Shown here piece by piece: positions 6,897 through 64,000 of a stretch of DNA of 64,000 bases. The DNA is from Minisyncoccia bacterium (lineage in GTDB: Bacteria; Patescibacteriota; Minisyncoccia; Phycocordibacterales; Phycocordibacteraceae). The notes under the pieces are model-generated. The model worked only from the letters and a program-made list of their open reading frames with translations. It was not told where the DNA came from and made no database searches. The stretch is from contig JBEKII010000002.1 of assembly GCA_050011835.1 (NCBI GenBank), positions 8,086-72,085 on the forward strand. The letters run 5' to 3'. Numbering within the stretch: the first letter of the stretch is position 1; each line of letters starts with the position of its first letter. The translations under genes were made by a program, and so were the position numbers.

Positions 6897-7163
6897 ATGC
6901 TTACCACTAGGAAAAAGGCAGCGGTTATAAAAAAAACCGCCCGGCACGACACGGACACCGGTTCGCCGGATGTTCAGGTTGCGCTTCTTTCCAAGCAGAT
7001 TGACGAGCTTGCCAGGCACCTTAAGAAAAACCCGAAGGATTTTCATTCCCGCCGCGGACTTCTCCAGATGGTTGCCAATCGCCGTTCGCATTTGCATTAT
7101 CTTGAAACTTCAGACAAGCGTCGCTACAACACGCTTATCAAAAAACTTGGCTTGAAAAAATAG
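6897..7163 (+). CDS. rpsO: 30S ribosomal protein S15
   Basis: ALLSKQIDELARHLKKNPKDFHSRRGLLQMVANRRSHLHYL is a diagnostic S15 sequence. The start was placed at the internal Met (MLTTRKK) of the longer track ORF. Confidence 0.9.
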   Translation: MLTTRKKAAVIKKTARHDTDTGSPDVQVALLSKQIDELARHLKKNPKDFHSRRGLLQMVANRRSHLHYLETSDKRRYNTLIKKLGLKK

Positions 7164-7237
7164 TTTTTCTAAGTGGTAGTATGGAGAAGTAGCTTTCGCT
7201 ACATTTTATTATCTTGTTTACATAAGTATTTATTTTT

Positions 7238-7753
7238 ATGGCAGTTATCAAACATCCGGCGCAACGCGTGGGGGTTTTTATTGACACTCAAAATCTCTAT
7301 CACAGCGCCAAGCATCTATATAAAGCACGCGTGAACTTCGGTAAAGTTCTTGAAGAAGCCGTGGGCGGCCGTATTCTCGTGCGCGCTATCGCCTATGTCA
7401 TCTCAACGGAGACCGGCGAAGAGAAAAATTTCTTTGAGGCGCTCACGAAGATGGGTATTGAAACGAAGGTAAAGGATTTACAGGTCTTCGCTGACGGCGT
7501 GAAGAAAGCCGACTGGGACGTTGGTTTGGCGATTGATGCGGTGAAACTTGCTCCCAAACTGGACACCGTCATCCTCGCCACCGGCGACGGCGATTTCGTG
7601 CCGCTTATTCAATATCTTGATATGAACGAGGGATGCCAAGTGGAAATCATTTCGTTCGGGAAATCCTCGTCAAGCAAACTCAAGGAGGCAGCGCATGCAT
7701 TTACCGATATGTGCGATGACCCGCACAAGTTTACTATTTCTTCGCGCGGATAA
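7238..7753 (+). CDS. NYN-domain (LabA/DUF88-like, PIN-fold) protein, a predicted RNase
   Basis: VFIDTQNLYHSA...ILATGDGDFVPL pattern: N-terminal acidic Asp plus a GDGDF motif, typical of NYN/LabA proteins. Confidence 0.7.
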   Translation: MAVIKHPAQRVGVFIDTQNLYHSAKHLYKARVNFGKVLEEAVGGRILVRAIAYVISTETGEEKNFFEALTKMGIETKVKDLQVFADGVKKADWDVGLAIDAVKLAPKLDTVILATGDGDFVPLIQYLDMNEGCQVEIISFGKSSSSKLKEAAHAFTDMCDDPHKFTISSRG

Positions 7754-7794
7754 CACATTTTATATCGCGCGAGATGCGCTACTATAGATGGTGA

Positions 7795-9039: not shown

Positions 9040-9084
9040 TCGCCCGGCAGGTGATTCTTCTGAATCATCTGCTATCATCTCTGA

Positions 9085-9432
9085 ATGAAAATTGAACATT
9101 TTAGGAAAAAACTGGAAGAAGCGAAAATGAAGTTGGAATCCGAAATGGGAAATATCGGCCGCCGGAATCCAATGGTCCCGGATGACTGGGAGCCTGTACC
9201 TCTGGAGACAAGTGCGGAATCGGATCCTGTTGACCAGGCAGATGTCATCATGAATCAGGAAAATGACGCGGCAATTCTCGCCGACCTTGAAGCGCGATAT
9301 GACGGCATTCTCGCCGCACTTCTAAGGATTGAGAAGAAAACATATGGGAAATGCGAAGTGTGCGGCGAGATTATCGGAGAGACGCGCCTTGAAGCCGATC
9401 CCGCCGCGACAACGTGCGTTAAGCATTTGTAA
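9085..9432 (+). CDS. DksA/TraR-family C4 zinc-finger protein
   Basis: A coiled-coil N-terminal half, then a C-terminal CxxC...C zinc finger (GKCEVCGEIIGETRLEADPAATTCVKH). Confidence 0.75.
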   Translation: MKIEHFRKKLEEAKMKLESEMGNIGRRNPMVPDDWEPVPLETSAESDPVDQADVIMNQENDAAILADLEARYDGILAALLRIEKKTYGKCEVCGEIIGETRLEADPAATTCVKHL

Positions 9433-9471
9433 TGTCAACTTTCGCGACGCTGCAAGGGAAAACGCAATTAG

Positions 9472-9735
9472 AACTGCGATTCCAAAGCACGGATACGCAA
9501 AGACGCTTGTCGCGCAACCAGCCGGCAACTTGATGAAAAGAACGATTTCAACGCTGCCACGAAAGGAACGCTTACGAATGCCGCCGCACGTTTAAATCTC
9601 TCGTCGCACAGCTACCATCGCACGATGCGCGTCGCGCGCATCATCGCCGACCTCGCCGACGCCGATTCCGTCACGTCGGCTTTTATTCACAAAGCGCTCC
9701 AGTATCGTCCGCGCGGATTATTTGGGTTTGAGTAA
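9472..9735 (+). pseudogene. 3' remnant of a comM/yifB (Mg-chelatase-like AAA+ ATPase) gene. Only the last ~85 codons remain and there is no start codon.
   Basis: Frame translation gives ...[51 protein letters not shown]. This matches the conserved C-terminus of ComM/YifB proteins (LS.RAYHRILKVARTIADL....HL.EA.QYR). The upstream part is missing, and the DksA-like gene ends only ~40 nt upstream. Confidence 0.55.
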
Positions 9736-10069
9736 TCCCCAAGATTCTAATTTGTGAAACGATACAGTGATATTCTAAAGAAAGATAAGCAATCCGATCT
9801 TTAGCAAGAAGGGAGGTGTGCCATATGCGACAACTAGCCGCCCGCTAAAAATCCGGCTTCATAAACCCACACACGGAGACTCTGCGGGCAATAAAAAACT
9901 CTGTGCGGCTGTGGGTGCTGTTCTTCTGGGAAGTAGTGTTTTGTGCGGATCCCTTCAAACCGGTAGGTATAGAAGCACAAGAAGGTATCACTACTTTTTA
10001 GGGATTGTTGTCCTCAGAAGAATAGGTTATGGATTGGCGTTGCAAAAAAGGAGGTCCTTCCTCTGACAA

Positions 10070-52498: not shown

Positions 52499-52746
52499 GA
52501 CCCCGCCAGAAGAAAGTTCGTTATTGCCGCGAGTACGAGTAGTACTGCGATAACAATTGTCGCATTGAATAGAAATTTTTCGGCGCCTCTGCGCTTATAA
52601 AACGTCGACGCGAAATTATCGCCTCCGAAAGCTCCGCCCAAGGTCGCGCCGCGCTGCTGGAGCACGATGCCGACAATGAGGAGGATTGAGAGGATGATTT
52701 CCACGTACGGCAATGCCGATACGAATGCCTCCATCTGTAGGTCCAT
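52495..52746 (-). CDS. secG: Preprotein translocase subunit SecG
   Basis: Two TM helices flanking the conserved QQRGATLGGAFGG motif. Confidence 0.8.
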   Translation of the reverse strand: MDLQMEAFVSALPYVEIILSILLIVGIVLQQRGATLGGAFGGDNFASTFYKRRGAEKFLFNATIVIAVLLVLAAITNFLLAGS

Positions 52747-53291
52747 CTTATCACGAAGTGTGTGAGTGGCGCAAGCAAGCGAGCAGGATAGCCGTATTGT
52801 GAGGTGGATAAAGGTGTTTCAGGAAAAACGAAAGAAAATCAGAATCATCAATCGTATTCACGAAGTATCAGTTTTATTCAACTTTTATCACTTTTTGGGC
52901 AACCCGTGGGCAATCGATTTTCATCGATTCTCTCGGCTTTATCAGAAAGAACAGTACAGGAAAAAAGCGATAAAGATCTCAAACACCACTGGATGGTGGC
53001 TTTTGAGTATAGAAAGTGATTCATGTTTTCAGGTCCTATACTAAATGTCCATCTTGAGCCGATTTAGTACCGTTTCGAATATGCTAAAGTTTGTGAGTGT
53101 GAGCGGCCTAAACCGCATGACTTTCGAGTCGTGAGGCATGGTCAAAAACCAGTCAAGAGCAAAGACCCCACCATAGGGATTGCCTTGACTGGTCCTGCAG
53201 GGAAACTTGCAGTGGATGGCCCTAAAAAGCTGTCACCCTGTGGTGGGATCTTTGCTATCCACCCGGGATTACCAGCAATCAATCCCGCCTT

Positions 53292-53522
53292 ATGATGCAA
53301 ATAGTAGTTTGGATTCTAGGTGCCATCGCCGCGTATCGTTTGTGGGATCACTATATGTGGCTGTCCATTATTGTGATTCTTGCAGCACTTAGTTTTGAGC
53401 TTGGTCCAGCCGAGAAACGCGAACAATCCGCGACTGGATTGAATCCTGACGCCGCGGCGCATCGTTTCTTTTGGTCCACTTTGATTGTGATAGGCATTTT
53501 CATATATTCCTTGTTCGTTTGA
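53292..53522 (+). CDS. Small two-TM membrane protein, hypothetical
   Basis: Hydrophobic helices. First gene of the AT-rich segment. Confidence 0.4.
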   Translation: MMQIVVWILGAIAAYRLWDHYMWLSIIVILAALSFELGPAEKREQSATGLNPDAAAHRFFWSTLIVIGIFIYSLFV

Positions 53523-53529
53523 TGATTCC

Positions 53530-53901
53530 ATGATTCGTAAAACTAAAATCATTATGCTGTGGTCTGTTATCGGACTAGCAATAATCGCGACTGTAGCGTA
53601 TGGAGCAATAAAGCTGTACACGCCAACTCCGCGGATATCTGCAACAAGCGATCAACAGGAAATTTTAGTTGCTCAAAAAGTTTGTGAACGAGTAAACAAG
53701 CTCACAAAAGGACTGTCCGTTGAAGGATCTCCCGTGAATTTAGCGGAATGCATCAAGATGGATAAGAGTTGTGAGCAAAAATGGGGACTGCATTCAGTGT
53801 GGTCAGGAACGAGCGATGCAAAAGATGTTCCTGTTTGCTTTTGCGATGATGGGTATCAGTGGGCTAGCGATGGATCGGGGAAATGTGTAGCAAAGATCTA
53901 A
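53530..53901 (+). CDS. Membrane-anchored Cys-rich secreted protein, hypothetical
   Basis: N-terminal anchor, six Cys in the C-terminal half (CFCDDGYQW...GKC). Confidence 0.45.
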   Translation: MIRKTKIIMLWSVIGLAIIATVAYGAIKLYTPTPRISATSDQQEILVAQKVCERVNKLTKGLSVEGSPVNLAECIKMDKSCEQKWGLHSVWSGTSDAKDVPVCFCDDGYQWASDGSGKCVAKI

Positions 53902-53964
53902 TGAAATTTGGATACACCACCAAATAACATATGAGACAGGACCCTTTGAAAATAGGACGAAATA

Positions 53965-55746
53965 ATGCGACCATATAGGTATATGGGAGAATTTGAAAGC
54001 AAACTGAATGCCCTCATAAAGACCGACGCTCGGTTCCTAGACCAAGATGGAGAAGTTCTGAGAGCTAGTGTGGTAGATGCTGCATACAAGGGCGACTCAG
54101 CTCTCGTGGAGCTTCTTCTTGGATTTGACGAAGCAAAGATAAAATTCTTTTCTGATGTAAAAGGTGTACTCGCGTTTAAAACAGCCGATTTCGTTGCATA
54201 CATAGAAGACAAGAACTTTCTAAACGATTCATATACACGGTTCAAAAATAAAATCGGTCTTACGATAGATGGCAAATTTTTCGGCGAGCGGGGCGAGGTC
54301 GCTCTCACATGGCCATTCAAGGATTGCGTGCTTGAAGGTGGTATGACCAAAGAAGATCAGAAGCGTAAGGAGATTTTCTTCAATGAAATTCTCGCGCAGG
54401 ATGAAATAGATAAACTCTTCACGCCAAAGGTGCTAACTAATTGGAAGCGTTACACCGCAAAAGGTGAAGAAAAGATCAACAAACTCAAACGCGATGAGAG
54501 TGGTCTTATTAAAGAGAACTTAGTCATCAAAGGCAACAACCTTCTAGCTCTTCATACACTCAAACAACAATTCGCTGAGAAAGTGAAGTTGATTTATATA
54601 GACCCACCCTTCAATACCGGAACAGATTCTTTCTTATATAACGATGGATTTTCTCACTCGACCTGGCTTACTTTTATGAAGAATCGGCTAGAGATAGCGA
54701 AGCAACTTTTGACCAGAGATGGGAATGTTTTCATTCATATAGATGTAAACGAGTCACATTACTTGAAGATTCTTTGTGATGAAGTGTTTGGACGCGAGAA
54801 CTTCGTAGAAGAAATTACATGGGCCTATGGTTCCGCATCGGGTGGCCGTGCAGCAGGCGCAAAGCCCGTTAACATTCACGATTATATTCTGCACTATGCG
54901 CGCGAATACAGTTCCCGCAAGCAAAATAAAATCCATACGCCTTACACAGATAAGTATGTTGAGGATTGGTTCAAATATACTGACAAAGATGGACGACGAT
55001 ACCGCAGACGAATGCGCGAACGGAATGAAAAAGGAGAAGTAGTTTGGGAAAAACAATATCTAGACGAGAGCAAGGGCGTACCCCTCACAACAGTTTGGAC
55101 TGACATTCGGCAAGTCTATGCGGACCCGCGAGCATACAAAGAGAACCAGCGTGAACACACCGAGCTTATGGATGGTTTTTCAACACAGAAGCCTGAACGG
55201 CTCATGCAACGCATTCTTGAGATGGCCACTGACCCAGGCGATATAGTGCTGGATTATCATTTGGGGAGTGGGACTACTGCTGCCGTTGCACATAAAATGG
55301 GCCGTCAGTATATCGGAACAGAACAATTGCATTACGAACACAACGGTTCTGTGCCACGTTTACAGAAGGTGATCAAGGGCGATACAGCAGGCATCTCAAA
55401 AGAAGTTGGCTGGAAAGGTGGCGGCGATTTCGTCTACGCGGAACTTATGCGATATAACGAATTGTTCATAGGAGATATAGAGACCGCGAAAGACACAAAT
55501 GCTCTTCTTAAGATTTGGCAGCGCATGAAAGAAGAAGCATTCTTTAAGTTCAGTGTGGAGATGCAAGCGTTTGAGAATAGCATTGATACCTTTAAGACTT
55601 TGCCACTCGATAAGCAAAAGAAGATACTTTGCGGCGTTCTCGACAAGAATCAACTCTATGTGAACCTGTCCGAGATAGACGATGCAGAATTTAAAATCGC
55701 CAAGGCCGATCAACAGGCGACCAAAGAATTTTACGATGGTCGATAA
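53965..55746 (+). CDS. Type III restriction-modification system methyltransferase (Mod), beta-class N6-adenine/N4-cytosine MTase with an extra ~190-aa N-terminal domain
   Basis: Motif IV IYIDPPFNTG precedes motif I (VLDYHLGSGTTAAVAHKMGRQYIGTE). ENLVIKGNNLLAL and FSTQKPERL blocks are typical of Type III Mod. Confidence 0.8.
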   Translation: MRPYRYMGEFESKLNALIKTDARFLDQDGEVLRASVVDAAYKGDSALVELLLGFDEAKIKFFSDVKGVLAFKTADFVAYIEDKNFLNDSYTRFKNKIGLTIDGKFFGERGEVALTWPFKDCVLEGGMTKEDQKRKEIFFNEILAQDEIDKLFTPKVLTNWKRYTAKGEEKINKLKRDESGLIKENLVIKGNNLLALHTLKQQFAEKVKLIYIDPPFNTGTDSFLYNDGFSHSTWLTFMKNRLEIAKQLLTRDGNVFIHIDVNESHYLKILCDEVFGRENFVEEITWAYGSASGGRAAGAKPVNIHDYILHYAREYSSRKQNKIHTPYTDKYVEDWFKYTDKDGRRYRRRMRERNEKGEVVWEKQYLDESKGVPLTTVWTDIRQVYADPRAYKENQREHTELMDGFSTQKPERLMQRILEMATDPGDIVLDYHLGSGTTAAVAHKMGRQYIGTEQLHYEHNGSVPRLQKVIKGDTAGISKEVGWKGGGDFVYAELMRYNELFIGDIETAKDTNALLKIWQRMKEEAFFKFSVEMQAFENSIDTFKTLPLDKQKKILCGVLDKNQLYVNLSEIDDAEFKIAKADQQATKEFYDGR

Positions 55747-55754
55747 TTGCAAAG

Positions 55755-58337
55755 ATGCCACAACAATTTCTCCACGACGAATACGACGTACTCTCTCGAC
55801 AAAATCGAATAGATCGAACGATACCTGATTACCTCGTCTCGAACCTTAATCCCGAGTTTGTTCTACGCCCATATCAAGTCGAAGCATTCGCGCGATTCTT
55901 CGACTATCTCAAAAATTACGAAGGCAAGGAGTATCCGATACACCTACTCTTCAATATGGCCACCGGCTCAGGAAAGACCAACATCATGGCTGGGTTGATG
56001 CTATACCTCTACAAACAGGGGTATCGCAACTTTCTTTTTTTCGTCAACTCAAACACGATCATCAGCAAAACGAAGAATAGTTTTCTCAATGAATCGTCTC
56101 GTAAATACATCTTCAATCCCGCAGGAATCACAATAGATGGTAAACACATTGTTATAAGGCCGGTTTCCAACTTTGAAGATTCAAATGATCACGATATCAA
56201 CATCTGTTTTACCACATTGCAGAAACTACACGGAGATCTCACTATTGAGAAGGAAGGAATGCTTACCTATGAAGACTTCAAAAACAAAAAGGTAGTACTT
56301 CTTTCTGACGAAGCACACCACACACAAAAGCAAACAAAACAAAAGAGTCTCGGAGTTTCTTTAGAAGAGGCGAGTTGGGAGAATACCGTCGAAAAGGTAT
56401 TTCAGCAGAATGTCCACAACTTGCTGCTTGAGTTCACTGCAACGATGGATTTCGCCCATGGAGCTATCGTATCCAAATATCGTAATAAGATTCTCTACCG
56501 TTACGATCTGAAACAGTTCCGCAACGACGGGTATTCAAAGGATCCACAAATTTTATCGAGTGATACTGACAAAAACGGCCGTATGCTTCAGGCAATTATT
56601 GTTAGTCAATACAGACAAGAGGTAGCGACCGCAAATGGTATCTACCTAAAACCAGTAGTACTCTTTAAAGCGCAAAAAACCATTACGCAATCCGAAGAGA
56701 ATAAAGTACTTTTCCATAAATTAATTGGAGATCTTTCAGCCGCAGACATTAAAGAGGCACGGAGATGGAAGAATGAGGTGCTCGAGCGAGCATTTGTCTT
56801 TTTCAAGGAGCAAGGCATCACAGATTCTGTGTTAACGCGTAAACTTAAAGATGGATTTGCCGAGAGCAAATGTCTGAGTGTGAATGATGAGACACAAAAA
56901 GAACAGAACCAAATTCTTCTAAATTCGTTAGAGGATAAAGACAATCAAATACGGGCCATATTTGCCGTACAGAAGCTCAATGAAGGATGGGATGTACTCA
57001 ATCTCTTTGATATCGTCCGTTTATACGAAACACGTGACTCAAGAAACAACAAGCCCGGACCGACAACAATTGCCGAAGCGCAACTCATTGGTCGTGGTGC
57101 TCGTTATTACCCATTTGCTCTATCAAGCGAACAAGATCGCTACACACGCAAATACGACTCAAGTCTGAATAGCGAGTTGCGTATTCTCGAGGAACTTCAT
57201 TACCACTGTCATCCAGGCGATAAATCCCGTTATATAGTCGATATAACAAACGCTCTTATACAAACAGGGCTCCTAGACGAACAGGAGACAGTTCGTGAAT
57301 TACGACTTAAAGAAAGCTTCAGGGAAACTAAGTTCTATAAAAGTGGCGTGGTGTTTGCCAATGAACGCAAAAAGCGTTGTTACAATCATGTCCGATCTTT
57401 CGATCAGCTTGGCGTGAAGCGTAAGAATATTAGTTACACTGTGTTTTCTGGAATGGGAGCAGAAGAAGGAGTCTTTGCCGATAGGAAGACGCCCAAAGCG
57501 ACAGTTGCCATAAGTACAAAAGATGTAAAAGTCGCGGATATTGAACCGCATGTTGTTCGCGCAGCTCTTTCATATAACGACTTTTTTTCCTTTTCCAACT
57601 TTAAACAATACATACCCGGCATTTCCTCGCTGGCAACTTTCGCTACAGATCCCAATTATATTGCCGGCCTTAGTATTACATTTCGAGGTTCTGAACACGA
57701 TCTCGAATTTTTAGACAACAGAACAAAATTTGCGGCTCTAATGGTTCTCCTTGCAGACATAGAAGCACAAATGAAGGAAGCGTTAACAGAATATGAGGGC
57801 ACCGAAAGCTTCTTGCCACAGGCTGTCCGCCTTGTCTTTACTGACAAGAAAGTAAAAGTACGTATACCAAAAGAAACGATTTACGATGAGGGTCGTCGTG
57901 TATTTCTCGAGGACAAACCTTGGTATGTGTTCGAAACACAATACGGAACGAGCGAAGAAGATTCTCTCGTTGATCTCATCGGCCGATATGTAAGTGACTT
58001 TAAGAAAGAATTCCGTGAGGTCTATTTAGTACGCAATGAACGACAGCTGAAAATCTATAACTTTTCTGATGGTCGTGGTTTCGAGCCGGATTATCTCCTC
58101 TTTCTAATCGGTAAAAAAGGGCAAAACTACACTTACCAACTCTTTATTGAGCCAAAAGGCCAACACCTGCGAGAATATGATTTATGGAAGGATCAATTTC
58201 TTGAGGAGATACGAACTCGCTTTAAGGATAAAATCTTCACAGCTGAATCGAAGACCGGATATCGAGTTATAGGAGTACCGTTCTATAACAGCGAAAATGA
58301 AAATGAATTTGTCGAGAAAATGCTCAGTGTTTTGTAG
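55755..58337 (+). CDS. Type III restriction endonuclease Res subunit (SF2 helicase-nuclease)
   Basis: Walker A MATGSGKTN, DEAH box (LLSDEAHH), helicase motif VI (QLIGRGAR). 860 aa, starting 9 nt after mod. Confidence 0.8.
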   Translation: MPQQFLHDEYDVLSRQNRIDRTIPDYLVSNLNPEFVLRPYQVEAFARFFDYLKNYEGKEYPIHLLFNMATGSGKTNIMAGLMLYLYKQGYRNFLFFVNSNTIISKTKNSFLNESSRKYIFNPAGITIDGKHIVIRPVSNFEDSNDHDINICFTTLQKLHGDLTIEKEGMLTYEDFKNKKVVLLSDEAHHTQKQTKQKSLGVSLEEASWENTVEKVFQQNVHNLLLEFTATMDFAHGAIVSKYRNKILYRYDLKQFRNDGYSKDPQILSSDTDKNGRMLQAIIVSQYRQEVATANGIYLKPVVLFKAQKTITQSEENKVLFHKLIGDLSAADIKEARRWKNEVLERAFVFFKEQGITDSVLTRKLKDGFAESKCLSVNDETQKEQNQILLNSLEDKDNQIRAIFAVQKLNEGWDVLNLFDIVRLYETRDSRNNKPGPTTIAEAQLIGRGARYYPFALSSEQDRYTRKYDSSLNSELRILEELHYHCHPGDKSRYIVDITNALIQTGLLDEQETVRELRLKESFRETKFYKSGVVFANERKKRCYNHVRSFDQLGVKRKNISYTVFSGMGAEEGVFADRKTPKATVAISTKDVKVADIEPHVVRAALSYNDFFSFSNFKQYIPGISSLATFATDPNYIAGLSITFRGSEHDLEFLDNRTKFAALMVLLADIEAQMKEALTEYEGTESFLPQAVRLVFTDKKVKVRIPKETIYDEGRRVFLEDKPWYVFETQYGTSEEDSLVDLIGRYVSDFKKEFREVYLVRNERQLKIYNFSDGRGFEPDYLLFLIGKKGQNYTYQLFIEPKGQHLREYDLWKDQFLEEIRTRFKDKIFTAESKTGYRVIGVPFYNSENENEFVEKMLSVL

Positions 58338-58342
58338 ACTTT

Positions 58343-58474
58343 ATGGACGAGGAACTCTTTGAATTAGCAAAAGAAAACGACCTCTCACTTGATGAAGCAC
58401 AAGAGGTTCAAGATCTTGCCGATGAGCTCGGTGTGGATTTAGACGATGCGTTAGAGATTTGGCAGGCGCAATAA
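58343..58474 (+). CDS. Highly acidic 43-aa micro-ORF, translationally coupled to res (not in the ORF track because it is under 60 aa)
   Basis: ATG 6 nt after the res stop. Translation MDEELFELAKENDLSLDEAQEVQDLADELGVDLDDALEIWQAQ, with 17 of 43 residues D/E. Confidence 0.35.
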   Translation: MDEELFELAKENDLSLDEAQEVQDLADELGVDLDDALEIWQAQ

Positions 58475-59061
58475 ATCAAATAATAATGACCACCGCGACC
58501 TCCACAATTTTACTATCCAGTCCTCAATTCAATGCAATCAATGCTTCGTTGCATAGCATTGCCTTCTCGCTTCAAAATCAGTCTTTTTTGAATACGCAGC
58601 TCTTCGCGGCTGTAGTTGGTGCCGCTTTGGGGCTAATGCCTTCATTGTATTTGCTTTACAAAGATAGGCCAAGAATAAAAGTTAAAGTGGGTCACATTCT
58701 GGTCCCAATTCCATCAATCAGTCATATAGACAACGGCTTCTCGGTCGCCATCTCCAATAGTGGCAGAAGGCCGATAACAGTAGAGAGGATATTTCTTCCG
58801 TTTAAAGACGGAGAGTCGCTTGTCTTCACTAGCGAATCAAGTTTTGTAGGTGGTTCCAGCGGGTTGCCTAAAGTACTTGGCGAAGGAAATTCTCATAATG
58901 TCGCGGTTCTGGCAGGAGAGGTAGCGGAGGCCTTCTTAAGGAAACAATCCTATCCCGTCGCGGCTTGTTATGGTGATGCTCTCGGCAATGTCTACAAATG
59001 TAAGACAACACAGGAATTTTGGGACACGATGTTTAGAGTCCAAGCTAGCGATTCTAACTAG
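58459..59061 (+). CDS. Hypothetical membrane protein
   Basis: One TM helix (LFAAVVGAALGLMPSLYLLY). No recognisable domain. The start is uncertain. Confidence 0.4.
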   Translation: MAGAINQIIMTTATSTILLSSPQFNAINASLHSIAFSLQNQSFLNTQLFAAVVGAALGLMPSLYLLYKDRPRIKVKVGHILVPIPSISHIDNGFSVAISNSGRRPITVERIFLPFKDGESLVFTSESSFVGGSSGLPKVLGEGNSHNVAVLAGEVAEAFLRKQSYPVAACYGDALGNVYKCKTTQEFWDTMFRVQASDSN

Positions 59062-59083
59062 GCTCGACTGCTATACTGTTCGC

Positions 59084-59935
59084 ATGAAAGTTAATTTCTC
59101 TTCTCGCCCGGTTCAATACACCATCGTTGGAATCATCCTTATCGTCTGTCTCGGCATCACAGTTTTTGTGACAGGAAAGGAGCTCTTGAAACTTGCCGGA
59201 TCGAATCAAGACTTCACCACAGCCACAGGAGGCAAATGCAACATTGCGATTATTCCATTAGTCGGGCAGATCTTCGCTTCTCAAGCTGATGCCGATGCCC
59301 AGAACGCGTCCGACAACAGTTCAACGGTTTCTGCGGAGTATGTTCTTCAAGAAATAGAACGCGCTCAAAATGACAGATCAATCAAAGGCGTTGTTCTTCG
59401 TGTTGATTCCCCCGGAGGTTCGCCGGTTGGAGGCAGTCTCATAGCAAACGCTCTGAAAAGGTTGAATAAGCCGTCAGTTGCTCTTATTTGGGGGCAAGGC
59501 GACTCCGCTGCATATCTCGCGGCTACAGGTGCAAACACCATCATCGCTTCGCCATCATCGGACATCGGTGACATAGGTGTTACGGATTCGTATCTTGATC
59601 AAAGCGGAAAGGATATACAGGACGGTCAGAAGTTCATACAAATCGCCGCTGGCACATACAAGGACACAGGGAATCCGGACAAACCGCTCTCATCCGATGA
59701 GCAGGCGTTATTGCAACAAGAAGTAAACGAGGTGTATCAAAACTTCGTTCAAGCAGTGGCGAAGAATCGCGGGATGTCGGTTGACGCAGTTAAAGATCTT
59801 GCAGACGGAGAATCGTTTGTTGCTTCAACTGCTACAAGCACAGGTTTGATTGATTCATTGGGCGATTCCGAAACAGCACGCGTCTGGTTTCAACAAAAGT
59901 TAGGTAAATGGTCTGATCCAGTGTTGTGTGAATGA
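59084..59935 (+). CDS. sppA: Signal peptide peptidase SppA (S49 family), membrane-anchored
   Basis: Start refined to MKVNFSS. TM anchor, then an S49 fold with the catalytic Ser context (GQGDSAAYLAA) and Lys. Confidence 0.8.
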   Translation: MKVNFSSRPVQYTIVGIILIVCLGITVFVTGKELLKLAGSNQDFTTATGGKCNIAIIPLVGQIFASQADADAQNASDNSSTVSAEYVLQEIERAQNDRSIKGVVLRVDSPGGSPVGGSLIANALKRLNKPSVALIWGQGDSAAYLAATGANTIIASPSSDIGDIGVTDSYLDQSGKDIQDGQKFIQIAAGTYKDTGNPDKPLSSDEQALLQQEVNEVYQNFVQAVAKNRGMSVDAVKDLADGESFVASTATSTGLIDSLGDSETARVWFQQKLGKWSDPVLCE

Positions 59936-59982
59936 CATAACAGCAAAAACGGCAGGACCAAAATCCTGCCGTCATGCTTTTA

Positions 59983-60606
59983 CTAATTCTTGAATGACTG
60001 AATGGCAGCACTCGCCGCGTCTTTCGTGAGTTCACCTAGTTGTTCTTCCCACTGACGACGCTGACTGTCATCAGTTACTTTGACTTGAATCAGTTGGCGA
60101 AGATACTCCAACTGCTTTTCAGTCGCTGGTTCTGAAGCACTATCTCCGTAAGATTCTTCGGCTCCTGATTTGTCACGGATCAGGTCGAGAACTTTACTTG
60201 CTCGAATTGCGGCGTCAGCTAATGCACTGTTGAATGCACACGCGATAGCTCGTCCGAAGAATTTGTTAGTCGGGCCAATCATTGCGCTACCTCGTCCCTG
60301 CGAAAGCACCCTGCCGTCTTTGGTCATAGTGCAGAGGAACGAAACCAATCCGTCGACGCCCATTAAGTTGAGCGTCTGCAGATCTTCCTCGACAACTGCC
60401 TTGATAGTGTGAGTACCGAGGCACTTATCGATTTCTGATCTGATAGGATTTTCTTTGTCCTGAAGATCGTAGACTTTTGCGCGCATCAACTCAATAGGAT
60501 GCTGTGGTTTTAACTGGAACGGCGATACGACTGACACTGCTGGTTTCCGATAATAGGTCTGATTCATATTTGATGTGTTTAGGTAATAATGGTTTCGATA
60601 TTTCAA
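59983..60606 (-). CDS. Hypothetical protein
   Basis: 207-aa ORF. No recognisable motif. Confidence 0.4.
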   Translation of the reverse strand: MKYRNHYYLNTSNMNQTYYRKPAVSVVSPFQLKPQHPIELMRAKVYDLQDKENPIRSEIDKCLGTHTIKAVVEEDLQTLNLMGVDGLVSFLCTMTKDGRVLSQGRGSAMIGPTNKFFGRAIACAFNSALADAAIRASKVLDLIRDKSGAEESYGDSASEPATEKQLEYLRQLIQVKVTDDSQRRQWEEQLGELTKDAASAAIQSFKN

Positions 60607-60678
60607 TCGGTTTGACGGTTAGTTCTTTGTTAGGGTCGTAGTAACTTAAGTACATCACAAGCTTCACTCCGCTTCCGC

Positions 60679-61166
60679 TCATACCTTGGCTCGTTCAACT
60701 TGTAGGCGATAGAAGAGCAAAACAGTACGAGGTATCTTAATATCTTCTCCACGCTCGTTTTTGGCGTCTATGTAAGTAATGGAGCGTAGAGCTTTCTGAC
60801 CTTTCTTGACAGTGAATCCAAGCTTTAACCACTGCGCAAAAGTTCGGGCATTTTGATACGGATCATATCTTGCTGCCTCCGCTTCTCCCCAGCGTTCACT
60901 AATTTGATTTCTGATCATCGTGCTTGTTAGTTCCGAGCCAGTGAAAGGCGTCGCAACAAGTTCTTCAACAGACTTCATACGCATCTCTTGCGGGGAAGAA
61001 GTATCCTCTTGCACGCTTCACGCATCGCTTCTTCTCGTGATTCGCCCTCTGATAAAACTGTAATTCCATCGTTGGCGATTACTGAATAGCCGTAGATGTC
61101 AGGCAGTTCTTCGACTTCAGAAGTGTGTTCATTCCAAACACGCCGATGAATCGGTTGTATATACAT
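60679..61166 (-). pseudogene. ArdC-N-like ssDNA-binding (antirestriction/conjugation-associated) gene, split into two overlapping frames
   Basis: Track ORFs 60975..61166 and 60679..61014 overlap by 40 nt on the same strand. The downstream part contains YDPYQNARTFAQWLKLGFTVKKGQKAL, similar to the ArdC_N/DUF1738 motif (spyWlTfkQakelGgqVrKGEkg). Confidence 0.45.
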
Positions 61167-61508
61167 AATGCTTATTCTCTTAACTAATAATGACTAACGA
61201 AAACTGAGTGGTATTGAAAAGGTGGGGTGGGGGAGTTATTCACTTTAGAGTTCCAAGGAAATGGACCTCCTCATACAGTACGGTACCGGTCTGCAAGTTT
61301 GAAAAATTCTCATCACGCGATAAACTCTTCGTCTTTTAGGATTACCACCCACCATTTTCAGAATTTCATTGGCGTCTATAAATTTTTTCCAATTTTCTGA
61401 TAATTCGCTCGTCTACGCTTTGACATTTGTCAGATGAGTACTCTAGTAAAGTGAGTAGGTGGTATGAAAAGTACACAAAGTACCGTGCTTAATAGGTTCG
61501 CCCGCAGA

Positions 61509-61558
61509 GGAGTAGCGATCGCTTTCGTACCACACGAACAAGCACCGGTCGCTACTCC
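61509..61558 (+). repeat. 10-bp perfect inverted repeat (GGAGTAGCGA / TCGCTACTCC) with a 30-nt loop, upstream of the PrimPol gene
   Basis: Read directly from the sequence. Candidate ssi/origin or regulatory hairpin. Confidence 0.5.
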
Positions 61559-61581
61559 TTTGCGTTTATTCTTCATTTATT

Positions 61582-62262
61582 GTGGTTATGAATTCATCTA
61601 CAAGTACAGCAGAGATCAAAAAAGATTTAAATGAAAACAAAATCCTAGAATACGGCAAATGGTATGTGGAAGAAGGGCTCACAATTATTCCAATCGGGAG
61701 CGATGGCAAACCGCTTCTCTATTCGTGGAAGAGTTTTGCAAAGAGCGGAACTCGCGCCACGACCGAAGATGTTATTCAGTGGGTTAGACAATGGCCCGAT
61801 TTGAGATGGGGACTGGCTACCGGCAGAGGTATGGGCATTATCGTTATCCATCTGAAGTCAGAAGAAACCATCAATCAATGGCCTTCCACTGTGTGTTCAG
61901 AAACAAGCGACGGGGGTATAGATTTATTCTTCCTTCATCCGGGCATTTTTTTCCGTTCCAATGTGAAAGTCAGAAGCAAAAAAGAATTCATGCCGGACAT
62001 CGATGTCATCGGCGAAGATGACTATGTGATTTTGCCGTTATCGTTGAGTAGCGGAGAACTTCCTTGTGAAGGATGGATCAGCGCGCCCGATGATACTTAT
62101 TACGCCGGAATTCCAGATGATATCCGCTCCTTAATTCTTGAGGATCCGGACTGCATTCTTACGGAAGTGCCGGAAGGTGTTCCGCTTCCTGAAGTGAAAG
62201 GAAGGAACGGCAGCGTTGATAAAAGAATTGCGAGGATAACAGGAACGGAGTATGAGCAATGA
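61582..62262 (+). CDS. Bifunctional DNA primase/polymerase (PrimPol, AEP-fold) N-terminal domain protein
   Basis: LTIIPIGSDGKPLLYSWKSF...WGLATGRGMGIIVIHLKS...GGIDLFFLHPG...IDVIGEDDYVILPLS matches the Prim-Pol (bifunctional primase-polymerase) pattern. Confidence 0.7.
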   Translation: MVMNSSTSTAEIKKDLNENKILEYGKWYVEEGLTIIPIGSDGKPLLYSWKSFAKSGTRATTEDVIQWVRQWPDLRWGLATGRGMGIIVIHLKSEETINQWPSTVCSETSDGGIDLFFLHPGIFFRSNVKVRSKKEFMPDIDVIGEDDYVILPLSLSSGELPCEGWISAPDDTYYAGIPDDIRSLILEDPDCILTEVPEGVPLPEVKGRNGSVDKRIARITGTEYEQ

Positions 62263-63718
62263 ATATAAGCCGAGAGAATCGTCGGCCATAAAGATTGTAA
62301 ACATGGTGCTGGAAAATCCCGGCATCATCCTATTCAGCGATGAGTACGGCGTTGCCCATGTAAAATTTCCGGTCGGCGGTCATTCAGAAATATGGCCGTG
62401 CAAAAGCAGCGCCTTCACTCGTTGGATCAGCGGCGAGTACTACCAATTCACTCACGGGAAAACCATAGCGGGTCGAGAAAGCACAAAAGACGCTTGTAAT
62501 CTTCTTGAAGCGTGGGCTGTCAATAAAGGAAAAGAACACAAGCTCTATAATCGCATCGGAGAAACATCGGATGCGACTTGGTACGACTTAGGCGACGAAG
62601 AATGGCGGGCGGTAAGAATAACAAAAAGCGGCTGGGAAATCGTGACAGATGTTCCAATTCTATTTCGCAGATTCTCGCATCTTGCTCCTCAAGTAGCTCC
62701 AGCGAGAAACGGTTCGGTGAAAGATATTTTGCAGTTCGTAAATGTTACCAGCCCGGAACAGCAGACGCTCTTCCTCGTTCACTTGGTATCCATGTTCATA
62801 CCCGGATGGCCACACCCGGCGCTCTATGTGTATGGTTCACAAGGTTCTGCGAAGTCCACCCTAATCCGTATTGATCGTAAGTTGATCGATCCGTCTAAGA
62901 TTGAAGTGGTGGGGCTGACTCGCCACGAGAAGGAATTGGCTCAGCAGTTAGGCCACCATGCCTTTCTCGCTTTAGACAATGTTTCAGATATGCCTGATTG
63001 GATCGCCGATATTCTCTGTCGTGCAATCACAGGCTCCGGCTTCAGCAAGCGCGAACTTTATTCAGACGATTCCGATATCATTCGTCATGTGATGGCGAAT
63101 ATCGGAATTAACGGAATCAACATCGCGTCCAATCGCGGCGACTTGCTTGAACGCAGTCTTTTACTGAAACTAGAACGCGTAAGCAAAGGGGATAGGAAAC
63201 AGGAACACGAACTTATGGCTGACTTCGAGCTAGCACGCCCGAAGATTCTTGGTGCCATTTTTGATGCTGTGGCGAAAGCAACGGCGATAAGACCATCCAT
63301 CAAAGTGGACGAGCTGCCGCGTATGGCAGATTTCGCTTTGTGGGGTTGCGCCGTCTCCGAAGCATTGGGAATTGGGCAAAAAGCGTTTCTCGACGCGTAC
63401 TTTCGAAATATAGGAAATCAGAGCGAGGAAATGATCAGCGGCAATACTGTCGCAACGATTCTAGTTAGCATCGTTGATTCTCATTACGGAGAATTTCCAT
63501 GCGAGAATCCTACGGAGCTTTTCAAGGCTTTCAAGGATCGCGCCTTTACAGAGCAGATCATGGATCACCGTCTTCCGGCTAATCCAGCGGCTTTTATGCG
63601 TGAACTAAATCGCATCAAAACCCCGCTTGAGGAAATGGGGTATCAAATTCAAACCAATAGCGATCGCAGCATAACCATTCGAAAAATCACAGCGGAACCT
63701 GAAGCGCCGTCGTCGTAA
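62252..63718 (+). CDS. P-loop NTPase of the phage/plasmid primase C-terminal (P4/D5-like SF3 helicase) type
   Basis: Overlaps PrimPol by 11 nt. Walker A YGSQGSAKST, Walker B-like LALDNVSD. The domain order matches PrimPol-helicase replication proteins of mobile elements. Confidence 0.6.
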   Translation: MSNEYKPRESSAIKIVNMVLENPGIILFSDEYGVAHVKFPVGGHSEIWPCKSSAFTRWISGEYYQFTHGKTIAGRESTKDACNLLEAWAVNKGKEHKLYNRIGETSDATWYDLGDEEWRAVRITKSGWEIVTDVPILFRRFSHLAPQVAPARNGSVKDILQFVNVTSPEQQTLFLVHLVSMFIPGWPHPALYVYGSQGSAKSTLIRIDRKLIDPSKIEVVGLTRHEKELAQQLGHHAFLALDNVSDMPDWIADILCRAITGSGFSKRELYSDDSDIIRHVMANIGINGINIASNRGDLLERSLLLKLERVSKGDRKQEHELMADFELARPKILGAIFDAVAKATAIRPSIKVDELPRMADFALWGCAVSEALGIGQKAFLDAYFRNIGNQSEEMISGNTVATILVSIVDSHYGEFPCENPTELFKAFKDRAFTEQIMDHRLPANPAAFMRELNRIKTPLEEMGYQIQTNSDRSITIRKITAEPEAPSS

Positions 63719-63727
63719 GACGCGATA

Positions 63728-63869
63728 CAGCGATTGCAGCCATTTGTGGGCATCTTGCAGGGAACTGCACAACCCATCTGTCCGTTAAGAAGAAGAATTA
63801 AGAGGCACCGGTGATCATCTGTGGTCATTTGCTGCTCGTACGGGTACCCACAAATGGCTGTAATCGCTG
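63728..63869. repeat. 23-bp near-perfect inverted repeat (CAGCGATTGCAGCCATTTGTGGG / CCCACAAATGGCTGTAATCGCTG, 22/23 matching) flanking a 96-bp core
   Basis: Read directly from the sequence. The core contains a TGCAG-GGAA-CTGCA hairpin. It lies immediately after the helicase stop, at the window edge. Confidence 0.6.
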
Positions 63870-64000
63870 CGATAGCAGATAAAACCATTGACAATGAAAA
63901 TCGCAAGAATACAATATGGTCGTGTGGGATGAATCCTGCATTGTTCTAACTAGCACTATTTTTGTACATGTCTTGTATATGTCCCTCTACTGTAATATTG

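What the first reader, a model, noticed from the sequence alone, without database searches (positions are those of the whole stretch)
53292..64000. AT-rich defence/replication island: Type III R-M + acidic micro-ORF + ArdC-like + PrimPol-helicase, ending in a 23-bp inverted repeat
The last ~10.7 kb differs in base composition from the ribosomal core. It carries genes typical of mobile elements: mod/res of a Type III R-M system, an ArdC-N-like ssDNA-binding gene of the kind found on conjugative elements, and an AEP PrimPol followed by a P-loop primase-C/SF3-type helicase. It ends with a long inverted repeat right at the window edge. No integrase is visible, so it may lie beyond 64,000, or the element may be plasmid-derived. 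Mobile elements of this kind are poorly catalogued in CPR-like genomes. This one also contains an S49 SppA gene, which is unusual cargo if it is real cargo.
Basis: partly seen in the sequence, partly recalled or inferred. Interest (0 to 1): 0.7.

Follow-up and report, generated by a model that had tools for sequence, protein, structure and literature searches.

The report
Integrated defence island in secG
The AT-rich end of the window is most of a 13-kb mobile element that has inserted into the start of the secG gene of a tiny groundwater-type (CPR) bacterium; it carries a restriction system, its own replication genes and a little-understood structured RNA, so it is a known kind of element, resolved here in unusual detail.

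Summary
GC is 45.1% in the island and 50.7% in the host. Type III mod/res, a 43-aa acidic ORF, an S49 SppA, a small ArdC-N-like protein, a PrimPol-like ORF, a D5/SF3-type helicase and the 23-bp inverted repeat are all present.

The source contig extends past the window and shows an HTH_17 gene and a tyrosine integrase. A perfect 22-bp direct repeat brackets a 13,065-bp element, from window 52,739 to extrapolated 65,803. About 60 related Kaiserbacteria/Paceibacterota genomes have groES and secG adjacent, which is the empty site.

- The element starts 553 bp earlier, at the secG start codon, and supplies a substitute secG promoter.
- The inverted repeat is internal, immediately 3' of the helicase, and recurs in relatives. 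It is probably the replication origin.

Other refinements:
- Paired 26-bp TTGCCCA-N4-TTGCCCA motifs look like integrase arm sites.
- The PrimPol has lost its catalytic residues.
- The "ArdC" is the N-domain only.
- The acidic ORF and SppA recur in related elements.
- An Rfam LOOT RNA heads the cargo operon, here and in relatives.

Verdict: a new member of a known kind (site-specific integrative, plasmid-like defence island) with some new details.

The parts
52717..52738 (.). attL core: 22-bp perfect direct repeat CGATACGAATGCCTCCATCTGT. It covers 4 nt upstream of secG plus the first 18 nt of secG (secG is on the - strand). The second copy (attR) lies outside the window at extrapolated 65,782-65,803, 14 nt after the integrase stop codon.
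   Evidence: D5, 100% identity, spacing 13,065; the same secG 5' sequence is nearly invariant in about 60 relatives.
52745..52774 (-). Element-borne substitute promoter-like sequence for secG (TTGCGC-N15-TGATAAGAT). It replaces the ancestral TTGCAT-N17-TGCTATCCT, which is now stranded next to attR (extrapolated about 65,804-65,846).
   Evidence: The promoter pattern is read from the alignment of relatives; no transcription data exist.
52893..52918 (.). P' arm-type site: 26-bp TTTTGGGCAACCCGTGGGCAATCGAT, which is two TTGCCCA heptamers 11 bp apart on the - strand. An identical copy (P arm) sits inside the 3' end of the integrase gene (extrapolated 65,641-65,666).
   Evidence: The same double heptamer occurs at both arms of an independent element (L050) and once in a remnant (L028), and nowhere else in the 87 loci held at the time of that scan.
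53105..53234 (+). LOOT RNA (Rfam RF03000), 57 nt upstream of the first gene of the cargo operon.
   Evidence: 67.2 bits, gathering score 46.4, full-length 1-121. LOOT holds the same position in relatives L333, L336 and L328.
53292..53522 (+). 76-aa small membrane protein (two hydrophobic helices).
   Evidence: called by JGI. No family assigned.
53530..53901 (+). 123-aa protein with an N-terminal hydrophobic segment and many cysteines. Homologues follow LOOT in other elements.
   Evidence: L217, L286, L331, L328; 31-45% identity.
53965..55746 (+). Type III R-M methyltransferase (Mod).
   Evidence: DPPF motif.
55755..58337 (+). Type III R-M restriction subunit (Res): helicase motifs plus a C-terminal PD-ExK nuclease motif.
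58343..58474 (+). Conserved 43-aa acidic protein (o43).
   Evidence: at least 125 clusters at E<=0.001, nearly all 43 aa; the 120 listed are 68-100% identical; differences are mostly synonymous; it lies at the 3' end of defence operons of different types.
58486..59061 (+). 191-aa protein of unknown function with a hydrophobic segment.
   Evidence: No hits in Pfam, PHROGs, NCBIfam or PADLOC.
59084..59935 (+). Membrane-anchored S49 signal-peptide-peptidase-like protease (SppA, 36K type).
   Evidence: The same o43-SppA pair is in related element L333/L340.
59983..60567 (-). 194-aa protein (o194), conserved partner of the ArdC-N-like gene.
   Evidence: weak DUF3072-like C-terminus in the 175-aa protein at the matching position in L336.
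60491..60682 (-). 63-aa ORF (o63a) in the leftward operon.
   Evidence: A gene of similar size holds the same position in L340.
60679..60978 (-). 99-aa stand-alone ArdC N-domain-like protein (putative ssDNA binding).
   Evidence: about 23 bits in two orthologues, at the cutoff; low-confidence model, but the top three Foldseek hits are R388 ArdC.
60975..61166 (-). 63-aa ORF (o63b), first gene of the leftward operon.
   Evidence: (tblastn match in the L028 remnant).
61503..61564 (.). 19-bp inverted repeat in the divergent intergenic region between the leftward operon and the replication genes. Possible operator.
   Evidence: I8, 89% complementary. Function is inferred only.
61588..62262 (+). PrimPol-like (AEP fold) protein with degenerate catalytic motifs (HxK for DxD/E; D for the motif II His).
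62252..63718 (+). D5/SF3-type replicative helicase with a winged-helix C-terminus. Deviant Walker A GSQGSAKST.
   Evidence: pLDDT 89.7; ASFV PrimPol, SaPI5 primase-helicase, MPXV E5, NrS-1 CTR; probability 1.00.
63728..63869 (.). 142-nt stem-loop (23-bp arms, 96-nt loop) directly 3' of the helicase stop codon. Putative replication origin.
   Evidence: The pRN1 precedent is PMC4234260. The origin function is inferred.
63888..63915 (+). Near-consensus promoter TTGACA-16-TACAAT, conserved in relatives.
63922..64000 (+). Start of a conserved transcript of about 200 nt. It ends beyond the window (about 64,126) in a conserved hairpin plus U-run. Further out of the window: a conserved palindrome, a 49-aa ORF (64,230-64,379), HTH_17 (64,363-64,569), the tyrosine integrase (64,580-65,767), the P arm and attR.

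Best explanation
The region is the first 11.3 kb of a 13,065-bp site-specific integrative element. The host is a Ca. Kaiserbacteria/Paceibacterota (CPR) genome.

Integration. A tyrosine integrase, with an HTH_17 excisionase-like partner, recombined an attP with a 22-bp core that covers the secG start codon.
- After insertion, secG reads from an element-supplied promoter.
- The ancestral promoter is left at attR, next to groES.
- Two 26-bp double-heptamer (TTGCCCA) sites lie about 115 and 154 bp either side of the core in the reconstituted attP. They are the likely arm-type integrase binding sites.

Cargo operon (rightward). It starts with a LOOT RNA and two small membrane or secreted proteins. 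It then carries a complete Type III R-M system, which gives defence and probably stabilises the element. It ends with a conserved 43-aa acidic protein and an SppA-type protease.

Leftward operon. It encodes a stand-alone ArdC-N-like protein and its conserved partners.

Replication module. It consists of a catalytically degenerate PrimPol-like protein, a D5/SF3 helicase and a large stem-loop just 3' of the helicase gene.

Shown: the insertion, its boundaries, the empty sites, the gene identities and the conserved architecture. Inferred: integrase arm binding, origin function, replication after excision, the roles of LOOT, o43 and SppA, and the route of cell-to-cell transfer.
For: - The source contig extends the window and shows HTH_17, then an integrase with Phage_int_SAM_3 and Phage_integrase domains. 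R, HxxR, H and Y can be read in the translation.
- Perfect 22-bp and 26-bp direct repeats occur in nested order.
- Of the 80 related loci fetched, 63 show groES and secG together (60 also groEL). In most the gap is about 100-500 bp; a minority have gaps of 1-5 kb. Here the gap is 13.6 kb.
- The secG 5' sequence and its upstream promoter pattern are nearly invariant in relatives. The ancestral promoter is found right of the attR core.
- An independent element sits at the same site in a complete Kaiserbacteria chromosome (L050). Its integrase fragment is 71% identical, its cargo is umuDC, and it has the same core-plus-double-heptamer geometry. L028 holds a remnant.
- Composition shift.
- Type III R-M.
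- Helicase fold.
- Related elements share the helicase and use varied recombinases and cargo.
- Three of the four related elements compared have a long stem-loop (19-23 bp arms) 3' of the helicase, with arms of different sequence; the fourth (L333) has only a 10-nt repeat. The pRN1 origin is a precedent.
- LOOT lies at the 5' end of the cargo operon in 4 of 4 elements of this helicase family.
Against: - No excised circle or attP junction was seen. The exact attP junction is absent from IMG/VR.
- The three other contigs with identical host genes all carry the element, so current mobility is unproven.
- The PrimPol lacks catalytic residues, so self-priming is doubtful and autonomous replication is not assured.
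- No transfer machinery (capsid, terminase, relaxase, T4SS) was recognised among the ORFs.
- The arm-site and origin assignments rest on conservation and analogy only.
Confidence: 0.88

Rival explanations
1. It is a phage satellite of the PICI/SaPI type. On this view the integrated island has int, an Xis-like HTH, a primase-helicase and an adjacent origin, is induced by a helper phage, and is packaged in the helper's capsids.
For: - The size (13 kb) and the int / HTH / pri-rep / ori layout fit.
- The SaPI5 primase-helicase (7ola) is among the best structural matches of the helicase.
- The S49 protease matches PHROG 53 'head maturation protease' at 2e-50.
- Several ORFs remain unassigned.
Against: - No terS, capsid-size-redirection, portal or capsid genes were detected by Pfam or PHROGs.
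- The S49 protein passes the cellular SppA model TIGR00706 and has an N-terminal membrane anchor.
- No relative was found in IMG/VR with the helicase or the integrase.
Confidence: 0.15
2. It is a decayed prophage remnant that keeps only integration, replication and moron genes.
For: - In the wider sample, LOOT RNAs and o43 often sit in prophage-like contexts with a terminase and a large serine recombinase.
- L050 at the same site is clearly decayed: its integrase is truncated.
Against: - The integrase is full length with its catalytic residues, and both att repeats are perfect.
- The same compact gene set (LOOT, small proteins, R-M, o43, SppA, the o194/ArdC-N block, helicase) recurs without structural genes in L333/L340 and L336. 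This argues for a functional compact element type.
Confidence: 0.07
3. It is an integrated plasmid or integrative mobilisable element that moves by conjugation, as the ArdC-like gene might suggest.
For: - The ArdC-N-like protein is of a type known from conjugative plasmids.
- The replication module is plasmid-like.
Against: - No relaxase, coupling protein, T4SS or oriT-like feature was found in any ORF.
- The ArdC-like protein lacks the protease domain.
Confidence: 0.05
4. It is ordinary chromosomal DNA, or an assembly artefact, with no mobile element.
For: None beyond the fact that the three other contigs with the same host genes also carry the left end.
Against: Empty sites in about 60 relatives, perfect flanking repeats, an integrase, a composition shift, and identical left-junction sequence in assemblies from three other samples.
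Confidence: 0.01

Closest known systems
dusA-associated integrase islands (Farrugia et al. 2015, PMC4482086)
   Same: - Tyrosine-integrase genomic islands that insert in the conserved 5' end of a housekeeping protein gene.
- Cargo is highly variable and the integrase is the common feature.
- The target gene's 5' end is rebuilt by the element.
   Different: - The target is secG, not dusA, and the host phylum is Patescibacteria.
- Integrase relatedness to the dusA integrases was not tested.
- Here the element also seems to supply a promoter, and it has conspicuous 26-bp double-heptamer arm sites.
pRN1-type PrimPol-SF3 helicase replicons, and phages with the same replicase (Berkner et al. 2014, PMC4234260)
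   Same: - A PrimPol-like domain plus an SF3 helicase.
- A stem-loop of 100 nt or more immediately downstream of the replicase gene. In pRN1 this stem-loop is required for replication.
   Different: - PrimPol and helicase are separate overlapping ORFs.
- The PrimPol catalytic residues are replaced.
- The element is integrated and bacterial.
- Origin function is untested.
SaPI/PICI phage satellites
   Same: - Islands of about 13 kb with int, a small HTH, a primase-helicase and an origin next to the rep gene.
- Structural similarity of the helicase to the SaPI5 Pri-Rep (7ola).
   Different: - No packaging or capsid-interference genes were found.
- The cargo is an R-M system and membrane proteins.
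- No helper phage is known.
Defence hotspots of P2/P4-like elements, and R-M-bearing genomic islands reported in Patescibacteria (mSystems 2025, PMC12455944)
   Same: - A mobile element with conserved flanks and a swappable defence system. At the same position between LOOT/small proteins and o43, related elements carry Type III, Type I, or a ResIII plus methyltransferase pair.
- R-M islands in Paceibacteria MAGs have been reported.
   Different: - The published Patescibacteria islands were predicted from composition, and no att sites or integrase mechanics appear in the parts of that paper read here.
- The conserved flanks here (a LOOT RNA and a 43-aa acidic protein) are not those of P2/P4.
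ArdC of plasmid R388 (PDB 6i89/6sna)
   Same: Weak but reproducible sequence and fold similarity to the N-terminal ssDNA-binding domain.
   Different: The protein is only 99 aa. It has no C-terminal metalloprotease domain, so it cannot work as full ArdC does.

Membership tests
Site-specific integrative genomic island (tyrosine recombinase) | Integrase of the tyrosine recombinase family with catalytic residues | tested here: met
   PF14659 and PF00589 on the 395-aa product. R, HxxR (HVLRH), H (LLGH) and Y (RYAHL) are read in the translation. The gene lies outside the window.
Site-specific integrative genomic island (tyrosine recombinase) | Flanking direct repeats (attL/attR) at the junctions | tested here: met
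   22-bp perfect repeat, spacing 13,065 bp.
Site-specific integrative genomic island (tyrosine recombinase) | Unoccupied target site in related genomes | tested here: met
   groES and secG are adjacent in about 60 related MAGs. The reconstructed attB matches their promoter plus secG start.
Site-specific integrative genomic island (tyrosine recombinase) | Excision to a circular form (attP junction) | tested here: inconclusive
   The exact attP junction was not found in IMG/VR. Raw reads are not available to these tools.
Type III restriction-modification system | Mod: N6-adenine methyltransferase of the Type III class, encoded upstream of res | tested here: met
   PF01555 and PF12564; PADLOC MTase_III 607 bits; DPPF motif.
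Type III restriction-modification system | Res: SF2 helicase motifs plus a PD-(D/E)xK nuclease | tested here: met
   PF04851; PADLOC REase_III 471 bits, residues 20-856; GSGKT, DEAH and PD...ExK.
AEP primase-polymerase (Prim-Pol, PF09250) | AEP fold or family signature | tested here: met
   PF09250 36.8 bits against a cutoff of 22.8; PHROG 1156.
AEP primase-polymerase (Prim-Pol, PF09250) | Catalytic motif I DxD/E, motif II His, motif III Asp | tested here: not met
   Alignment with family members. Motif I is HLK where active relatives have D-V-E. Motif II is D where relatives have H. Only motif III Asp is kept. The closest relatives (P0003, P0008, P0013) show the same motif I and II substitutions.
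SF3 / D5-like replicative helicase | D5_N-like domain, SF3 ATPase core and winged helix; P-loop | tested here: met
   AF2 model pLDDT 89.7. Foldseek probability 1.00 to ASFV PrimPol, SaPI5 Pri-Rep, MPXV E5, vaccinia D5 and NrS-1 CTR. G195/G198/K201 are invariant. No Pfam sequence hit.
ArdC anti-restriction protein | N-terminal ssDNA-binding domain (PF08401) | tested here: inconclusive
   23.0 and 22.7 bits in two orthologues against a cutoff of 22.6. The model has pLDDT 63, but its top three Foldseek hits are ArdC, E 4.5e-3.
ArdC anti-restriction protein | C-terminal metalloprotease domain | tested here: not met
   The protein is 99 aa and the whole family is 97-99 aa. There is no room for the domain.
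LOOT RNA (Rfam RF03000) | Covariance-model score above the curated gathering threshold over the full model | tested here: met
   67.2 bits against 46.4, model positions 1-121.
SppA signal peptide peptidase, 36K type (TIGR00706 / S49) | Family model above the curated cutoff | tested here: met
   162.4 bits against 155.45; PF01343 2e-33. The catalytic Ser/Lys dyad was not checked residue by residue.
PICI / SaPI phage satellite | Packaging or capsid-redirection genes (terS, cpm, ppi or own capsid genes) | tested here: not met
   No such hit in Pfam or PHROGs for any ORF. Several ORFs are unassigned, so a divergent version cannot be excluded.
PICI / SaPI phage satellite | Induction and packaging by a helper phage | not testable with these tools
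   Needs experiments or particle-associated sequence data.
ICE / IME | Relaxase, oriT, coupling protein or T4SS | tested here: not met
   None detected.

The most novel reading that the evidence does not exclude
The LOOT RNA has had no known function or host since 2017. It may be the cis-acting 5' leader of the accessory and defence cargo operons of integrated mobile elements of Patescibacteria.

The proposal is that LOOT controls read-through of its own terminal hairpin and U-tract into swappable cargo. In this element family the cargo is closed off by a strongly conserved 43-aa acidic protein, which could be a DNA mimic or a regulator of the adjacent restriction enzymes. The island would then be one example of a CPR-specific 'defence hotspot' with an RNA as one conserved flank.
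Probability: 0.3. Interest if true: 0.7.

Novelty: new member of a known kind. Interest (0 to 1): 0.5.

Why it matters
Mobile elements of the ultra-small CPR/Patescibacteria are mostly known from composition-based predictions. This one has base-pair boundaries, an identified target (the secG start), candidate integrase arm sites, a promoter-replacement solution and a conserved modular plan.

The plan is: LOOT RNA, small envelope proteins, an exchangeable defence system, a 43-aa acidic protein with or without SppA, and a D5-type helicase with a stem-loop origin. Relatives share it while using other recombinases and other defence systems.

It can therefore serve as a template for finding such elements in CPR genomes. 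It gives a genomic context for an orphan Rfam family. It also flags two small conserved parts, o43 and the catalytically dead PrimPol, whose roles can be tested in vitro even though the host is uncultured.

Tried and rejected
- Nested-element idea. I considered that the 26-bp repeat, not the 22-bp one, is the crossover site, giving a nested inner element. I rejected this for three reasons. The 26-mer is a tandem TTGCCCA heptamer. It is conserved but not identical (92%) at both arms of the independent L050 element. The ancestral secG promoter lies directly outside the 22-bp repeat.
- Same-species empty site. Exact-protein look-ups with SecG and the solute-binding protein found only contigs that carry the element's left end. 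Two of them break within about 40 bp of the end of the 123-aa gene, just before mod. That may reflect strain variation in the cargo but proves nothing.
- IMG/VR scans with the helicase, the integrase and the attP junction found nothing.
- The first LOOT pattern (16 fixed bases) gave almost only chance matches in IMG/VR. One locus (L088) was real.
- PDB sequence searches with the helicase, its family profile, o194 and the ArdC-N-like protein gave nothing useful. Only the fold search worked.
- Rfam found no known family in the helicase-to-integrase spacer.
- PADLOC found no known defence protein other than mod/res.
- The 71/92-aa ORF over the P' arm site is probably not a gene. Its 'conservation' in L050 and L028 is DNA conservation of the arm region.
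- The supplementary text of the paper that first described LOOT is not held. I cannot say whether an association with mobile elements was already noted there.

Full report
**Observation.** The last 11 kb of the window differ in composition from the rest. GC is 45.1% over the element and 50.7% in the host 1-kb windows (Mann-Whitney p = 1.6e-5). The tetranucleotide distance to the host profile peaks at 0.27-0.32 between 52.5 and 65 kb, against 0.12-0.20 elsewhere.

- A complete Type III R-M system. Mod has N6_N4_Mtase plus TypeIII_RM_meth and scores 607 bits on PADLOC MTase_III. Res has ResIII, scores 471 bits full-length on REase_III, and carries GSGKT, DEAH and a C-terminal PD...ExK.
- A 43-aa ORF with 16 acidic and 1 basic residue.
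- An S49 protease that passes the SppA model TIGR00706.
- A marginal ArdC-N match.
- A Prim-Pol match.
- A 488-aa protein without any Pfam hit.

The 23-bp inverted repeat at 63728-63750/63847-63869 is real. It is 96% complementary, and its DNA fold is 5 SD better than shuffles.

**Where the sequence comes from and what lies beyond it.** An exact-protein look-up placed the window on a 169,847-bp JGI metagenome contig (3300037993, Ga0427919_0000197) and returned 9.7 kb beyond the window (L001; locus coordinate = window coordinate - 52,251). After the helicase come a 510-bp spacer, a 49-aa ORF, an HTH_17 protein and a 395-aa tyrosine integrase. The integrase shows R, HxxR, H and Y. Then follow a small gene, groES and groEL.

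**Boundaries.** Two perfect direct-repeat pairs are nested.
- A 22-mer (CGATACGAATGCCTCCATCTGT) lies at window 52,717-52,738 and at 65,782-65,803.
- A 26-mer lies at 52,893-52,918 and at 65,641-65,666, inside the 3' end of the integrase gene.

The 22-mer covers the secG start: its reverse complement reads ACAG ATG GAG GCA TTC GTA TCG.

I fetched 80 related loci with the neighbouring solute-binding protein. All are Kaiserbacteria/Paceibacterota-type MAGs. In 63 of them groES and secG appear together (60 also show groEL). They are adjacent and divergent, mostly 100-500 bp apart, against 13.6 kb here. A minority of the loci have gaps of 1-5 kb.

The first ~36 nt of secG and an upstream TTGCnn-N17-TGnTATCCT pattern are almost invariant at the DNA level across these genomes. 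Joining the sequence left of the left 22-mer to the sequence right of the right 22-mer recreates exactly that arrangement, including TTGCAT-N17-TGCTATCCT. Hence the 22-mer is the crossover core, and the element is 13,065 bp (52,739-65,803). The ancestral secG promoter is stranded at attR. secG now reads from an element-borne look-alike (TTGCGC-N15-TGATAAGAT). This promoter reading is inferred from sequence patterns only.

**The 26-mer.** It consists of two TTGCCCA heptamers 11 bp apart. In the 87 loci held at the time of the scan, the double heptamer occurs only in three settings:
- this element (the source contig and the three other assemblies of it);
- both arms of a second, independent insertion at the same secG site in a complete Kaiserbacteria chromosome (L050, OY969413.1), where the integrase fragment is 71% identical, the cargo is umuDC and the two copies are 92% identical;
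- once in a remnant in L028.

In the reconstituted attP the two copies lie about 115 and 154 bp either side of the core. Conservation of a phased repeat, rather than of exact sequence, fits arm-type integrase binding sites. This is an inference.

**The inverted repeat is internal.** It starts 10 nt after the helicase stop codon. Three of the four related helicase-bearing elements compared have one:
- this element: 23-bp arms, 96-nt loop;
- L331: 21-bp arms, 119-nt loop;
- L328: 19-bp arms, 120-nt loop.

In each it sits at the same place, within about 12 nt of the helicase stop codon. L333 has only a 10-nt repeat. The arm sequences differ between elements while complementarity is kept.

For the PrimPol-SF3 helicase plasmid pRN1, a 100-nt stem-loop downstream of the replicase gene is required for replication and tolerates relocation. 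Similar stem-loops were noted in phages with the same replicase (PMC4234260). By analogy the repeat is most likely the origin.

The spacer has further conserved parts:
- a near-consensus promoter, TTGACA-16-TACAAT, at window 63,888-63,915;
- a transcript of about 200 nt that ends, beyond the window, in a conserved hairpin with a U-run (z = -4.2);
- a conserved palindrome in front of the 49-aa ORF.

No Rfam family matches there.

**Replication proteins.** The 488-aa protein has more than 2,100 relatives. Judging by the source names given, they come mainly from Parcubacteria-group and related CPR MAGs. Most are fused to an N-terminal PrimPol/PriCT_1, PF22763, a DnaG zinc finger (PF01807) or Toprim_2 (PF13362). 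An AlphaFold model built on 35 sequences (pLDDT 89.7) matches ASFV PrimPol, the SaPI5 primase-helicase, poxvirus E5/D5 and the NrS-1 C-terminal region with probability 1.00. It is a D5/SF3-type helicase.

The upstream PrimPol ORF overlaps the helicase ORF by 11 nt. Aligned with the family, active-looking members have D-x-E, a motif II His and a motif III Asp. This protein and its closest relatives have H-x-K/R, D/N/Y and mostly Asp. In two other relatives the upstream ORF has lost the AEP domain altogether. The element therefore probably does not prime its own DNA synthesis. What the degenerate domain does is unknown.

**Cargo and backbone.** Related elements found through the helicase use different recombinases: tyrosine integrase in L331/L332, and large serine recombinases next to tRNA genes in L328 and L333. 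They also carry different defence systems: Thoeris-like TIR plus C5 methylase, or Type I R-M.

One of them (L333/L340) has the same block as here. In order: R-M, the 43-aa protein (88% identical), SppA, then four small genes on the opposite strand that include the ArdC-N-like and o194 homologues. L336 has ResIII plus methyltransferase, o43 and then two opposite-strand genes of matching size (175 and 99 aa) at the o194 and ArdC-N-like positions; their homology was not tested. So SppA is recurrent cargo of this element family and not a trapped host gene.

The 43-aa protein:
- It has at least 125 clusters at E<=0.001, nearly all 43 aa; the 120 listed are 68-100% identical to it.
- Differences between copies are mostly synonymous, for example 14 synonymous against 5 non-synonymous codons.
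- In five of the six contexts examined it is the last gene after a defence operon or defence-gene cluster of a different type: Type III, Type I, ResIII plus MTase, an SNF2-PLD plus Eco57I-like pair, and a decayed cluster with a Type I S-subunit fragment. In the sixth it is the first gene of an island.

Its function is unknown. An anti-restriction DNA mimic or a regulator of the neighbouring nuclease are guesses based on charge and position.

The ArdC-like protein is a 99-aa stand-alone N-domain. Pfam scores sit at the cutoff in two orthologues, and a weak model has R388 ArdC as its top three fold matches. It lacks the protease domain.

**LOOT RNA.** Rfam finds a full-length LOOT RNA (RF03000, 67 bits against a gathering score of 46) at 53,105-53,234. 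That is inside the element and 57 nt upstream of the first cargo gene. In the literature I could read, LOOT is described only as a metagenome-derived RNA with about 43 base pairs in six helices (PMC7779021, PMC7657543).

- Within the helicase family, LOOT occupies the same place, 41-60 nt 5' of the cargo operon, in L333, L336 and L328.
- A pattern scan of metagenome contigs returned 120 further loci. All 19 that were tested pass the Rfam threshold.
- With crude ORF calling, 84 of 98 loci have the next downstream ORF on the LOOT strand, usually within about 100 nt.
- The downstream genes are very diverse accessory genes: methylases, Mrr and other nucleases, trypsin-like peptidases, Ltp lipoprotein, patatin and others.
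- 40 of the 59 loci with enough upstream sequence carry a large serine recombinase. Terminases and ParB-methylases are also frequent.
- In 50 of 114 loci a terminator-like hairpin with a T-rich tail was found just after LOOT, and in 46 of these it coincides with the LOOT 3' end. The control rate is 6 of 101.

LOOT therefore looks like an RNA of integrated mobile elements, placed at the head of their cargo operons. Whether it is a separate sRNA or a regulatory leader is open.

**Verdict.** The boundaries, the role of the inverted repeat and the state of two proteins needed correction.

R-M-bearing genomic islands have been reported in Patescibacteria from composition-based predictions (PMC12455944). 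Integration into the 5' end of a housekeeping gene has the dusA islands as a precedent (PMC4482086). The element is thus a new member of a known kind. The parts that go beyond the ordinary are the secG target with promoter replacement, the arm-site pair, the conserved LOOT-to-o43 cargo frame and the inactivated PrimPol.

Noticed in passing
window 53105-53234 (+); also L088 5922-6043, L333 9017-9132(-), L336 1560-1690, L328 9349-9464(-), L339 9941-10063, and the 120 loci returned by the scan (L208 onwards): LOOT RNA (Rfam RF03000, function unknown) appears to belong to integrated mobile elements.
- It is co-oriented with, and usually within about 100 nt upstream of, very diverse accessory or defence genes (84 of 98 loci).
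- It is often within a few kb of a large serine recombinase (40 of 59 loci).
- In 50 of 114 loci a terminator-like hairpin and T-tract follows LOOT (46 of them right at its 3' end), against 6 of 101 controls.
   Followed up: partly
window 58343-58474; L333 258-389(-), L334/L336/L339 8001-8132, L338 8001-8135: The 43-aa acidic ORF is a widespread protein-coding family under purifying selection (at least 125 clusters, nearly all 43 aa). It usually sits as the last gene after defence operons of different types in CPR mobile elements. Its function is unknown.
   Followed up: partly
window 76-1077 (+) and tRNA-Gly 1181-1252 (-): The C-terminal part of a large serine recombinase (Recombinase plus Zn_ribbon_recom), with its start apparently lying left of the window start, sits next to a tRNA-Gly gene. 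The first ~6 kb of the window are also low in GC (about 0.44-0.46). This is probably the edge of a second integrated element lying to the left of the window.
   Followed up: partly
L050 6458-9805 (OY969413.1) and L028 about 6650-9790: The secG 5' end is a recurrent integration site. L050 holds a decayed 3.3-kb element with a truncated integrase and umuD/umuC cargo. L028 holds a remnant with one arm site. About ten other relatives (for example L044, L021, L034, L069, L071) have unexplained 1-5 kb gaps between groES and secG.
   Followed up: partly
L003 (ends at L001 1629) and L007 (ends at L001 1688), i.e. window about 53,880-53,940: Two independent assemblies of the same population break within about 40 bp of the end of the 123-aa gene, just before mod. 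This may reflect strain-level differences in the defence cargo at this position.
   Followed up: no
relatives L008-L087, about 50 nt upstream of secG; window-equivalent 65,804-65,846: secG in this lineage has a strongly conserved TTGCnn-N17-TGnTATCCT promoter-like pattern. It ends about 10 nt before the ATG, which suggests a leaderless or near-leaderless mRNA. The first ~36 nt of the gene are almost invariant at the DNA level, although neighbouring proteins are only about 70% identical.
   Followed up: partly
L331 6777-7029 (-) and L338 14472-14792 (-): Group I introns (Rfam RF00028, 66-70 bits) lie directly next to the recombinase end of two related elements. The attachment sites there may be intron-containing genes.
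   Followed up: no
window 5924-6823 (-): A 299-aa XerC/D-type tyrosine recombinase (Phage_int_SAM_1 plus Phage_integrase). It is probably the host chromosome-dimer resolvase and unrelated to the island.
   Followed up: no
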